A stretch of DNA of 64,000 nt from Arsenophonus sp. NC-CH8-MAG3 (lineage in GTDB: Bacteria > Pseudomonadota > Gammaproteobacteria > Enterobacterales > Enterobacteriaceae): NCBI GenBank assembly GCA_052174475.1, contig JBQMRO010000009.1, positions 2,915 to 66,914 on the forward strand, read 5' to 3'. Under the pieces are notes generated by a model. That model was given only the letters and a program-made list of their open reading frames with translations, searched no databases and was not told the origin of the DNA. The position numbers were made by a program, and so were the translations under genes. Below are positions 40,441 through 43,000 of the stretch, one piece after another. Every line of letters starts with the position of its first letter. The stretch's first letter is position 1.

Positions 40441-43000
40441 GTATAACTTCTGACATTCAGAGTTAATAATGTTGATTCTTGTTCTTAATGTGTGTAAGCA
40501 ATAGTAAAAATGCTTACGATACACATGACCGTCAAACAGTGTCCTGCATGACACTGGTTTATAATTTATCCTATCCATCTATTGATGCAGCAAATTAAGC
40601 AGTTTCATACAAGTATTGTTGAGTGGTTGATAATAAATCATTCATATGCTACCCTTCTTTATAAGAAGGGTAGCATATGTTACTGCTAAGATATCATAAT
40701 AATGACTAGGCATAAATACGTAAATATTTTATATTTAAACTAATATATCATAATTAAAATCAATGTTTATTCGTTGATAACAAAATAAATTGTTTTATTG
40801 CTTTCTCTATCGGTTTTGCTTTTTCTTAAAAAGAAAGAGCTGATACATCAATCTAGGTGTATATAACAGTTATAATCATATCTATTTTACCTAAATGGAA
40901 ATGTAAGGTACAATTAGAGAGTAAATTTCTAGCAATTTAGTTAAGATCTTATCAAATGAGTTTTTATTAATAATACTAATCATAAACCTTACAATCACAA
41001 ATGAAATATGCGATCTGCGCCAAGAATATATCTACAGTGTATTATTGGTTATAATACTAGTTTAGTAAATGTTACTATGAATTACGCCGGGTTGAAACCA
41101 GTTATATGGTATGGTAAATCACTACTTTTATGTGATTGAGGTTGCTTTGATTAAAATTATATTAATCATCAAGATTAATTCCGAGGGTTTTAATTAGTTA
41201 AAAATGAAACTAATATATTATTTCTGTTCTGAGGAACAGAACCCCCAGATACAAACTGGTTCTAAAATTTTATGATAGACAAAAGTTATCGGTGTTATTA
41301 GATAACTTTCAACTTAATGTTGAGAACAATTAAGCGTTATCTTAACTACTGGTTGGCAAAAGAATTTTTTATTCAGGTATATTAACAGCGGAATAAGGTT
41401 TTATTTCGAGATAATATTAATGTTTTAAAACAAAGAATGGGGTTATATGCCAACATTGCATAAAATTGAAAATTATAATGGTATGGTTTTAGAAAAAGGA
41501 TTTAACCCAAACGTGAAGCACTTATAGCATTAGGATTTCTTAGGCAGTTAAAGATAAAGCTAAATTAATGGCTAAACTATAAAAGTAGAAAATTGCAAAT
41601 TGCTGTGATATTAAATATCAGCTAACCTGATACAAAACCAATTGTTTGTTAACAACAAAGATGATTGCTGTTTAAGTAATATTACTAAATTAAGTTATCT
41701 CGCGCCGGTTGATAACCATGCTCTTTTTAGTTTTAGCATTCATCATGCTTTGGATAAAAAAGCAATAGTAGTGAATGATTTTCCAGCGGATATTAAAGCA
41801 AAGATTAGATTAGTTGCTGAAAAGTTTTGTAATCTAAAAATTACTTATTATTAGTGGTAATAATAAAGTAGTGAAGCACTTATCTAGGCTGTCGTTAATA
41901 TTTTTTTCATTAAAATCAAATAATCTCGAATCTAGAATTTATCTATATTGTAACGGAAGCTAATAGCTTTGATTCATTTTTAATGAATGTTAAACCGTTA
42001 GCATGATAATAGAGCATATTTTATCCGATGAAATTTAGATAATTCCGTAGTTATGGAAAGCAGTATTTAATAAGATTTTGATGTTAATAACATTAATATT
42101 GATTTTCATAAACTAAATAAATTAATGATTACTAATCATTAATGTTCCGCTATTATGGATTAAACAGATAATATTTTACTCGCTGCCAACTTTTTTATGA
42201 AAGTGTTGAAAATTACTTAATAAATAAAGATACTGTGCGCAACGTTATTTTTAGATATTTAATCTAACTTTTTACCAAACTAATAGTTCAATTAATAAAA
42301 ATTAGTGTTGGTTGTATTTATTACAGGCAAATCTAGAAAGTCGTCAGATAAATTATTACAATTAGATCACCTTATCCAGTCTTACATAACAGCTATCCTA
42401 TAATTTGCGACTATTGTTAATACGATACCTAATGCTATATTCTATATACGTAGATAAATTACCCTCCTTCTCTTCATCGCTATAGTGTTTGTATTTCAAT
42501 ATTATCTGATATATAGTTCAGTGTACATGATTAACCATGTGATGGTTAAATATGCTATTTTTTATATTTAAATATAGGCTTCAATGAAATTTGAAATTTT
42601 ATTTATAAAATTTTTAACTGTGGTAAATCTTATTTAGATTTACTCAAATGTTAGCATCAGAGTTCTCTACTTCGAAAATAATTTTTTCCGGTGTATTGAT
42701 TTAATTTTAGATAAAGTCTATTTAATTATTTTTAATATAAATTCCTTTAAGAAGAAAACTCGTTTTTATCTTATATTAGTTCAAGTAGAGGGAGTGGTTA
42801 TCAAGATTAAGTAAGCCTAGAATATATATGAGGATTACTTACCATTTACATTAAATAATTTAGTTAATTTTATTGTTCTAATAGCTCTACCGCATTCAAA
42901 ATATAATTAATATCTTATAACTAATTAGCAATCAGTAGATTATCTATCTTGGATAGAGCTAGTTCTTTAGCACTCTATTAAAACTACTCAAGAGATACTC
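40440..43000 (+). pseudogene. nuoG: nuoG, nuoH, nuoI and nuoJ remnants, heavily deleted
   Basis: VSCMT, SIVEWLIINH, QDI.IMT.H (NuoG); MKF (NuoH); FKKKTRFY (NuoI); YLI.LLAIS (NuoJ). Confidence 0.7.
40643..40679. repeat. 17-bp perfect inverted repeat, 3-nt loop, in nuoG
   Basis: CATATGCTACCCTTCTT-TAT-AAGAAGGGTAGCATATG. Confidence 0.95.

What the first reader, a model, noticed from the sequence alone, without database searches (positions are those of the whole stretch)
40643..40679. Fe-S motif of nuoG converted to a 17-bp perfect hairpin without length change
The 57 nt expected to encode [19 protein letters not shown] now read HSYATLLYKKGSICYC*DI in the same frame, and nuoG homology continues on both sides. 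The ancestral codons look quasi-palindromic and are now perfectly paired. It resembles a terminator but lies mid-gene.
Basis: partly seen in the sequence, partly recalled or inferred. Interest (0 to 1): 0.65.

Follow-up and report, generated by a model that had tools for sequence, protein, structure and literature searches.

The report
Copying-error hairpin in dead nuoG gene
A perfect 17-base-pair DNA hairpin sits where an iron-sulfur motif was once encoded in a dead respiratory gene of an Arsenophonus insect symbiont; it is best read as a scar of a known replication error (template switching), not a working element.

Summary
Window 40643-40659 and 40663-40679 form a perfect 17-bp inverted repeat with a TAT loop. 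It lies inside a heavily eroded nuoG pseudogene, over the codons that in intact relatives encode [19 protein letters not shown]. There is no net length change, and nuoG homology continues on both sides. The arm occurs nowhere else in the 2.34-Mb genome, so it is not an inserted or mobile element. It is not a convincing terminator: there is no T-run on the gene strand and no intact gene within about 10 kb. It matches no Rfam family.

Ten intact relatives carry only a weak quasi-palindrome at this site. A close relative in the same degenerate clade carries a different perfect 40-nt palindrome at the same site, made by its own changes (+5 nt). Two further relatives carry decayed versions. Several other dead-gene hairpins nearby arose the same way.

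The best explanation is repeated quasi-palindrome template-switch mutation in neutral DNA, followed by ordinary decay. The genome lacks recA, mutS, mutH and sbcCD, and xonA, recJ and mutL are pseudogenes. However, hairpin density here is not higher than in relatives, so a causal link is unproven. The mechanism is known; this is a clear natural example of modest interest.

The parts
40643..40659 (.). Left arm of the perfect hairpin (CATATGCTACCCTTCTT).
   Evidence: The arm is unique in the 2.34-Mb genome apart from its partner arm.
40660..40662 (.). Loop (TAT).
40663..40679 (.). Right arm (AAGAAGGGTAGCATATG). The inner AAGAAGG is ancestral nuoG sequence. The outer GCATATG overlies ancestral GCAATTG.
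40639..40695 (+). The 57 nt that encode [19 protein letters not shown] in intact relatives (the His-Cys3 motif of an Fe-S cluster in NuoG). They now read HSYATLLYKKGSICYC*DI, with TAA at 40687-40689.
40491..42451 (+). Recognisable remains of the nuoG pseudogene. tblastn with intact NuoG gives 7 pieces in three frames with 36 stops.
   Evidence: blastn against intact G017 nuoG covers window 40495-42543 at 68% identity. The NuoG family model TIGR01973 finds nothing in this genome.

Best explanation
The hairpin is a mutational scar in neutral DNA. After the nuo operon died in the ancestor of a small clade of degenerate Arsenophonus symbionts, the weakly self-complementary nuoG segment underwent replication template switching. 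In this error the nascent strand folds back, or crosses to the other strand, and briefly copies the opposite arm, so one arm is rewritten as the reverse complement of the other. Several such short events, in both directions, turned the segment into a perfect 17-bp stem in this lineage. The middle of the left arm was copied from the right arm, and the outer part of the right arm was copied from the left arm. By the symmetry of the switches, net length did not change. The same seed was perfected independently, and differently, in a close relative, and it decayed in two others. The hairpin has no function and will decay by ordinary one-sided substitutions. The following are shown: in-situ origin, colinearity, uniqueness, lineage-specific outer arms, and parallel cases nearby. 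The following are inferred: the template-switch mechanism itself, and the number and order of events.
For: (1) Ten intact and two independently eroded relatives have CATCCACATGATTGCCCAGTTTGTGAAGAAGGCGGCAATTGTCAT at the site, with a best perfect stem of 4-6 bp. The window has 17 bp at the same columns with flanks aligned.

(2) G001, a member of the same four-genome clade, has a different perfect palindrome at the same site: TTATATGTTTGCCCTCCTTA|TAAGGAGGGCAAACATATAA (20+20). It was made by inserting about 5 nt and keeping AATTGT downstream. The window instead converted GCAATTG to GCATATG in place. G043 and G006 keep GCAATTGT/TCAATTGT unconverted. The outer arms are therefore lineage-specific events.

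(3) The same kind of rewrite is seen at other dead-gene sites, with the intact sequence known. At window 37749-37780 the right arm was replaced by the reverse complement of the left arm with no length change, and all four clade members share this. Window 37588-37621 gained 9 nt and has decayed in G001. A G001-only case lies at the orthologue of 42362-42389, with no length change.

(4) The arm is unique in the genome, there is no Rfam match, and there is no conserved ORF beside it.

(5) Genome-wide there are 216 perfect stems of at least 12 bp, against 3-12 in shuffles. None of the 90 stems of at least 14 bp lies in an ORF of at least 120 aa. The stems are unique sequences, AT-richer than their flanks, with loops of 0-6 nt.

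(6) Stems that are perfect in one lineage differ from the other lineage mostly on one side (59 and 47 pairs). Mirrored changes are at the chance level (3-4 observed, 2-3 expected). This pattern is formation followed by neutral decay.

(7) The mechanism is established. Quasi-palindrome template-switch mutation in E. coli is RecA-independent and is restrained by the SOS response and RecBCD (PMC6357072). Template switching is proposed to create and perfect inverted repeats in Proteobacteria (PMC5941160) and in RNA genes (PMC8794818).
Against: No direct observation of the mutational event is possible. The exact path cannot be reconstructed. Both arms resemble their own ancestral arm and the complement of the opposite arm about equally (13 against 11 of 17), so at least two or three events must be assumed. 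The ancestral complementarity is barely above chance. The hairpin at 37749 is unchanged in both the window and G001 despite branch lengths of 0.19 and 0.13. That is more conserved than simple neutral decay predicts.
Confidence: 0.8

Rival explanations
1. A single ancient palindrome arose once in the clade ancestor. It has been kept perfect in the window and in G001 by continuing arm-to-arm correction (concerted evolution), and mutations were mirrored onto the partner arm.
For: The window and G001 arms differ at 3 substitutions and 1 indel, all mirrored on the partner arm. The hairpin at 35285-35314 shows one mirrored G:C to T:A difference. The palindrome at 37749 is shared and unchanged in both. 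PMC5941160 and PMC8794818 propose such maintenance.
Against: The outer right arms were built differently: by insertion before AATTGT in G001, and by in-place conversion in the window. G043 and G006 have unconverted outer arms. Over 38 kb, mirrored changes are not more frequent than chance, and stems decay one-sidedly.
Confidence: 0.12
2. The hairpin is a selected functional element: a transcription terminator, an RNA structure, a protein-binding palindrome or a cruciform. On this reading it was recruited to silence or insulate the dead operon.
For: The consensus scan calls it terminator-like on the minus strand, with tail AATGATTTAT. The stem is very stable. Both the window and G001 have a perfect structure at this site. 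In this genome, 12-24% of perfect hairpins lie just downstream of ORFs, against 3.6% expected, so real terminators of this form do exist here.
Against: There is no T-run on the + strand. The nearest ORFs of at least 150 aa are about 10 kb away on either side. The adjacent minus-strand ORF is not conserved. The structure has decayed in G043 and G006. There is no Rfam family match. The sequence differs completely between the two lineages that keep a stem.
Confidence: 0.05
3. The hairpin is an inserted foreign or mobile palindromic element (of the REP, RPE or MITE type) that replaced the motif.
For: Palindromic elements that insert in frame into genes are known in other intracellular bacteria (Rickettsia palindromic elements; from my own knowledge).
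Against: There is no net length change. Ancestral bases are retained in both arms (AAGAAGG, CA.ATG, CCC). The arm occurs only at this site in 2.34 Mb, even when 1 mismatch is allowed. No direct repeats or target duplication are present. The G001 palindrome is likewise unique within the 200 kb of G001 that was sampled and absent from G000.
Confidence: 0.01
4. The hairpin is an assembly or whole-genome-amplification artefact that creates short inverted duplications.
For: Symbiont genomes are often assembled from amplified or metagenomic DNA. The reads could not be checked.
Against: Independent assemblies of different species carry palindromes at the same orthologous sites: 40643, and an identical one at 37749. 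The rewrite is length-neutral and lies well inside a contig.
Confidence: 0.02

Closest known systems
Quasi-palindrome-associated template-switch mutations (Ripley's model; the E. coli thyA hotspot and the lacZ QP5/QP6 reporters of the Lovett laboratory; PMC6357072, PMC7202029)
   Same: An imperfect inverted repeat is converted towards a perfect one by clustered, templated base changes and small indels confined to the repeat. The process is RecA-independent, and no mobile element is involved.
   Different: This is a natural, fixed product in a pseudogene, built by several events to 17 bp from a very weak seed. Laboratory reporters score a single event at an engineered strong quasi-palindrome. 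No mutation assay is possible in this uncultured symbiont.
Evolutionary template switching that creates and perfects inverted repeats (Lavi et al. 2018, PMC5941160; Monttinen and Loytynoja 2022, PMC8794818)
   Same: Perfect stems far exceed the null expectation. Multi-base compensatory-looking changes are explained by one templated event, and orthologous stems occur in related genomes.
   Different: Those studies concern intergenic regions and functional RNA genes, where selection confounds the signal. Here the substrate is demonstrably dead coding DNA whose intact ancestral sequence is preserved in relatives, so direction and neutrality are clear.
Rho-independent terminator
   Same: It is a stable stem-loop, and the minus strand has a T-rich tail.
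   Different: The stem is much longer, and it is not GC-rich overall (41% GC). There is no T-run on the gene strand and no upstream intact gene. It is not conserved in sequence, and in two relatives the structure is not conserved either.
Coding palindromes in Nematomorpha mitochondrial genes (PMC6649704)
   Same: Perfect inverted repeats are embedded in protein-coding sequence.
   Different: There the genes remain functional and both arms encode protein. Here the gene is dead and the hairpin destroys the motif.

Membership tests
Template-switch (quasi-palindrome) mutation product | The derived segment is the exact reverse complement of the adjacent segment. | tested here: met
   Arms of 17/17 bp, 100% complementary.
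Template-switch (quasi-palindrome) mutation product | The orthologous ancestral sequence is colinear and only imperfectly self-complementary, and the changes are clustered within the repeat while the flanks align. | tested here: met
   Twelve relatives have a best stem of 4-6 bp at the site with flanks aligned. By my count, 6 of the 17 pairs were already complementary.
Template-switch (quasi-palindrome) mutation product | The new bases in each arm can be templated from the opposite arm (a donor arm keeps ancestral sequence). | tested here: inconclusive
   The inner right arm AAGAAGG and the outer left arm CA.ATG are ancestral, and their partners are derived. Overall, however, both arms are mosaics (13 against 11 of 17 identities), so more than one event is needed.
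Template-switch (quasi-palindrome) mutation product | It arises during replication by strand misalignment (direct demonstration). | not testable with these tools
   This needs a mutation assay or population sequencing.
Rho-independent terminator | A GC-rich stem followed directly by a U-tract, placed downstream of a transcribed gene. | tested here: not met
   On the + strand the stem is followed by TTACTGCTAAGA. On the - strand the tail is AATGATTTAT, a consensus hit only. No intact gene lies within about 10 kb.
Mobile palindromic element (REP / RPE / MITE) | Multiple copies in the genome, and insertion adds length. | tested here: not met
   There is a single site in 2.34 Mb at up to 1 mismatch, and net length is unchanged.
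nuoG (NADH-quinone oxidoreductase subunit G) gene | Homology to NuoG (TIGR01973) over the gene, in operon context. | tested here: met
   DNA alignment to TIGR01973-positive genes of relatives. tblastn pieces cover NuoG residues 62-711.
nuoG (NADH-quinone oxidoreductase subunit G) gene | An intact reading frame with the Fe-S ligands. | tested here: not met
   There are 36 stops in three frames. The family model finds nothing in this genome. The HxxxCxxCxxxxxC ligands now read HSYATLLYKKGSIC.
Known RNA family (Rfam 15) | A match to any covariance model. | tested here: not met
   No match at E up to 1 in 39500-42000 on either strand.

The most novel reading that the evidence does not exclude
In these Arsenophonus symbionts, which lack recA and mutS and have only pseudogenes of ExoI (xonA) and recJ, short-range template switching may be a quantitatively important and so far undescribed force in pseudogene erosion. 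Weak self-complementary seeds would become hotspots that are perfected repeatedly and independently in sister lineages, as at this nuoG site. The process would continually make new stable hairpins in dead DNA, and some of these could be recruited as terminators.
Probability: 0.25. Interest if true: 0.5.

Novelty: new member of a known kind. Interest (0 to 1): 0.3.

Why it matters
Dead genes whose intact ancestral sequence survives in close relatives are a rare natural setting. They allow the direction and neutrality of template-switch mutations to be read directly, without selection on RNA or regulatory function. This site shows one weak seed perfected differently in two lineages and decaying in two others. 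That supports the view that perfect inverted repeats in bacterial genomes can be by-products of replication errors rather than evidence of function. It also warns annotators not to call such stems terminators or RNA elements. It does not reveal a new mechanism.

Tried and rejected
1. A mobile or repeated element was rejected. A search for the arm with up to 3 mismatches over the whole genome found only the two arms at up to 1 mismatch. An exact search of genome contigs found nothing.

2. A known RNA family was rejected, because Rfam gave no hit.

3. A protein-coding reading was rejected. The pseudo-translation has no Pfam hit, and the adjacent minus-strand 134-aa ORF has none either (best hit E = 0.16, below its cut-off). 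That ORF is broken in G001.

4. The hypothesis that this genome is unusually hairpin-rich because of repair-gene loss is not supported. Density per non-coding kb is 12.4 per 100 kb here. It is 35-36 in the large recA+/mutS+ relatives G005 and G017, and 92-168 in the very AT-rich relatives. E. coli non-coding DNA shows a comparable observed/expected excess (PMC5941160). SbcD is absent from all 14 genomes of the genus that were tested, so its loss is not specific to this clade.

5. The hypothesis of general concerted evolution of arms was rejected, because mirrored changes are at the chance level over 38 kb.

6. Assigning a single donor arm gave an ambiguous result.

Full report
**Observation.** The window carries CATATGCTACCCTTCTT (40643-40659), the loop TAT, and AAGAAGGGTAGCATATG (40663-40679). 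This is a perfect 17-bp inverted repeat. Folded as single-stranded DNA it gives -19.1 kcal/mol, z = -7.6 against dinucleotide shuffles. From base composition, the expected number of stems of at least 17 bp with loops of 0-10 nt is 3.6e-4 per window and 0.013 per genome. Six locally composition-matched Markov shuffles of the whole genome never reached 17.

**Context.**
- The window lies in a 2.34-Mb, 102-contig, 32% GC genome.
- Only about 28% of that genome lies in ORFs of at least 120 aa.
- DnaB from the window is 91% identical to that of 'Arsenophonus sp. ET-YP4-MAG3'. The same-genus genomes range from 0.7 to 3.9 Mb. The organism is therefore a strongly eroded Arsenophonus-type insect symbiont.
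- Intact housekeeping genes in the window include groEL, dnaB, alr, aroB and trpS.

**The hairpin lies in a dead nuoG.** The NuoG family model finds nothing in this genome, while 13 relatives score above its cut-off. DNA of window 40495-42543 aligns to intact nuoG of G017 at 68% identity. tblastn with G017 NuoG returns seven pieces in three frames with 36 stops. The piece over the site aligns [41 protein letters not shown] to QIKQFHTSIVEWLIINHSYATLLYKKGSICYC*DIIIMTRH without a gap. From established knowledge, the motif is the H-x3-C-x2-C-x5-C ligand set of the His-Cys3 [4Fe-4S] cluster (N5) of NuoG/Nqo3.

**What relatives show at the site.**
- I aligned the orthologous segment from 14 genomes of the genus.
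- Ten intact genes and two independently eroded ones (G015, G018) read CATCCACATGATTGCCC(A/G)GTTTGTGA(A/G)GAAGGCGGCAATTGTCAT or a point-mutated version of it. Their best perfect stem is only 4-6 bp.
- In the register of the present hairpin, only 6 of the 17 pairs are complementary in the intact sequence (my count on the alignment). A 6-bp stem ATTGCC/GGCAAT exists in a different register. The ancestral 'quasi-palindrome' is therefore weak.
- A tree of the 3.6-kb nuoF-nuoG region puts the window in a fully supported clade with G001, G043 and G006. The clade sits on a long stem branch (0.16), and the order within it is unresolved.
- G001 has, at the same site, a different perfect palindrome: TTATATGTTTGCCCTCCTTA|TAAGGAGGGCAAACATATAA.
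- G043 has an 11-bp stem with one mismatch (TTGC[C]ATTTTT / AAAAAT[A]GCAA). G006 has only remnants.
- The outer right arm was made differently in each lineage. The window converted ancestral GCAATTG to GCATATG in place. G001 inserted about 5 nt (…CAAACATAT) ahead of an intact AATTGT. G043 and G006 keep GCAATTGT/TCAATTGT.
- The window and G043 share GGGTAGCA/AAATAGCA where the ancestor has GGCGGCA. That right-arm state therefore probably predates the split. The window's left arm (GCTACCC) is its complement, whereas G001's left arm (TTTGCCC) is ancestral and its right arm (GGGCAAA) is the complement of that.
- My inference is that one imperfect seed in the clade ancestor was corrected in opposite directions and extended independently in two lineages, and simply decayed in the other two.
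- A score-based attempt to name a single donor arm was ambiguous (13 against 11 of 17 identities). At least two or three short events are needed in the window lineage.

**Parallel cases.** A three-way alignment of the dead nuo operon (window, G001, intact G017), later extended to six genomes, shows the same process elsewhere.
- At 37749-37780, ancestral GGTGCATGATGTCGC was replaced by the reverse complement of the left arm with no length change. All four clade members share this. The stem is perfect in the window and G001 and decayed in G043 and G006.
- At 37588-37621 there was an inverted duplication of +9 nt. It is perfect in the window and decayed in G001.
- At the orthologue of 42362-42389, G001 alone gained a 12-bp stem without length change.
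- At 46642-46691, the window alone expanded a 50-nt perfect palindrome.

**Genome-wide picture.**
- The genome holds 216 perfect stems of at least 12 bp with loops of up to 10 nt, against 3-12 in shuffles.
- Of these, 23 have stems of at least 18 bp, up to 43 bp. All are unique sequences, mostly with loops of 0-6 nt.
- None of the 90 stems of at least 14 bp lies in a long ORF.
- Stems are AT-richer than their flanks, 0.24 against 0.28.
- A minority are probably real terminators. Between 12% and 24% lie within 150 nt downstream of an ORF of at least 150 aa, against 3.6% expected. The nuoG hairpin is not among them.

**Tests of rival explanations.**
- Mobile element: the arm is unique at up to 1 mismatch in 2.34 Mb, and the G001 arm is absent from this genome. 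Net length is unchanged.
- Terminator or RNA: there is no T-run on the + strand. A consensus scan flags only the minus strand, with tail AATGATTTAT. Apart from a 134-aa ORF on the minus strand beside the hairpin, no ORF of at least 120 aa lies between 30450 and 50263. That ORF has no significant family match and is broken in G001. There is no Rfam match.
- Selection or continuous concerted evolution: over 38 kb of window/G001 synteny (84% identity), stems that are perfect in one genome differ from the other mostly on one side (59 and 47 pairs). Mirrored changes (3 and 4) are at the level expected under independence (about 3 and 2). Hairpins therefore form and then decay. One residual oddity is that the 37749 palindrome is unchanged in two lineages despite branch lengths of 0.19 and 0.13.
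- Artefact: palindromes at orthologous sites in independently assembled genomes argue against it.

**Why here?** I used E. coli K-12 proteins as queries.
- The genome has no detectable sbcC, sbcD, recA, recX, mutS, mutH or rdgC.
- It has multi-stop pseudogenes of xonA (ExoI), recJ, mutL, xerC and xerD.
- It has intact xseA, xseB and recBCD.
- Across 14 genomes of the genus, the four large ones keep recA, mutS and xonA, and three of them keep recJ (G016, only 72% complete, gave no recJ match). The window's clade has lost all four. SbcD is absent from all 14.
- Template switching at quasi-palindromes in E. coli is RecA-independent, and the SOS response restrains it (PMC6357072). From my own knowledge, the 3' exonucleases ExoI and ExoVII also suppress it (Dutra and Lovett 2006).
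- This fits a permissive background, but the link is not demonstrated. Perfect-hairpin density per non-coding kb is 12.4 per 100 kb here and 12.2 in G001. It is 7 in G043 and G018, 35-36 in the large recA+/mutS+ relatives (where most are probably terminators), and 92-168 in relatives with 17-21% GC.
- E. coli non-coding DNA shows a comparable excess over null models (PMC5941160).

**Comparison with what is known.** The closest known process is quasi-palindrome-associated template-switch mutation (PMC6357072, PMC7202029). Its evolutionary counterpart has been described for proteobacterial intergenic inverted repeats (PMC5941160) and for RNA stems (PMC8794818). Full-text searches found no paper that links template switching to symbiont pseudogenes or to Arsenophonus. 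An earlier agent of this scan reached the same reading for two hairpins in the neighbouring nuoB pseudogene. I re-examined those sites myself.

**Verdict.** It is an in-situ, length-neutral rewrite of nuoG codons into a perfect hairpin. It was almost certainly made by several template-switch events at a local hotspot in dead DNA, and it has no function. It is a clear new example of a known mutational process, of modest interest.

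Noticed in passing
G001 (L041: G001:C4:178320-178359), orthologous to window 40642-40680: A close relative in the same clade carries a different, spacerless 40-nt perfect palindrome (20+20) at the same nuoG site. It was made with a net +5 nt insertion.
   Followed up: yes
window 35285-35314: A 13-bp perfect hairpin lies upstream of the nuo operon. The window and G001 differ by one mirrored pair (G:C against T:A), and both are perfect. G043, G006, G017 and G005 are imperfect there.
   Followed up: partly
window 37749-37780 and 37588-37621: Two further template-switch hairpins lie in the dead nuo operon. The first is shared by all four clade members and is unchanged in the window and G001, although neutral expectation is about 4-6 changes per lineage.
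   Followed up: partly
window 46642-46691: A 50-nt spacerless perfect palindrome. G001 has a version about 16 nt shorter and imperfect, so the expansion is specific to this lineage.
   Followed up: partly
orthologue of window 42362-42389 in G001: G001 alone turned TTAGATCACCTTATCCAGTCTTACATAA into TTATATCACCTTGTATAAGGTGATATAA (12-bp stem) with no length change. This shows the same process acting in the other lineage.
   Followed up: yes
whole genome G000 (for example C29:221269-222151 xonA, C55:73014-74584 recJ, C29:90754-91245 mutL): No sbcC, sbcD, recA, recX, mutS, mutH or rdgC is detectable. xonA, recJ, mutL, xerC and xerD are multi-stop pseudogenes. xseAB and recBCD are intact. uvrD carries 2 stops.
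   Followed up: partly
14 genomes of the genus: SbcD is undetectable in every Arsenophonus genome tested, including the 3-3.9 Mb ones. recA and mutS are kept only in the large genomes (mutS also in G015 and G018).
   Followed up: no
relatives G011, G041, G004 (200-kb samples, L142-L171): These extremely AT-rich relatives (17-21% GC) hold 92-168 perfect hairpins of at least 12 bp per 100 kb of non-coding DNA. That is 6-10 times their own shuffle expectation.
   Followed up: no
window 2179-3615, 8313-12001, 19423-23611, 25714-27878, 30778-34415, 44329-49870, 53001-57508: Many old, mutually diverged (64-76%) copies of a few repeat families, probably decayed insertion sequences, fill much of the non-coding DNA of the window and of G001.
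   Followed up: no
window 5727-7640 (-): A single 637-aa ORF joins poly(A) polymerase (PcnB) domains to an HPPK (FolK) domain. Another agent of this scan has already reported it.
   Followed up: no
window about 40174-40578 against G001: The window and G001 differ by a 231-nt indel at the nuoF/nuoG boundary. The 134-aa minus-strand ORF here is not conserved and is probably spurious.
   Followed up: partly
downstream of the hairpin, window about 40697-40752: G001, G043 and G006 share a deletion of about 55 bp that the window lacks. The ML tree, in contrast, weakly groups the window with G043+G006. The branching order within the clade is unresolved.
   Followed up: no
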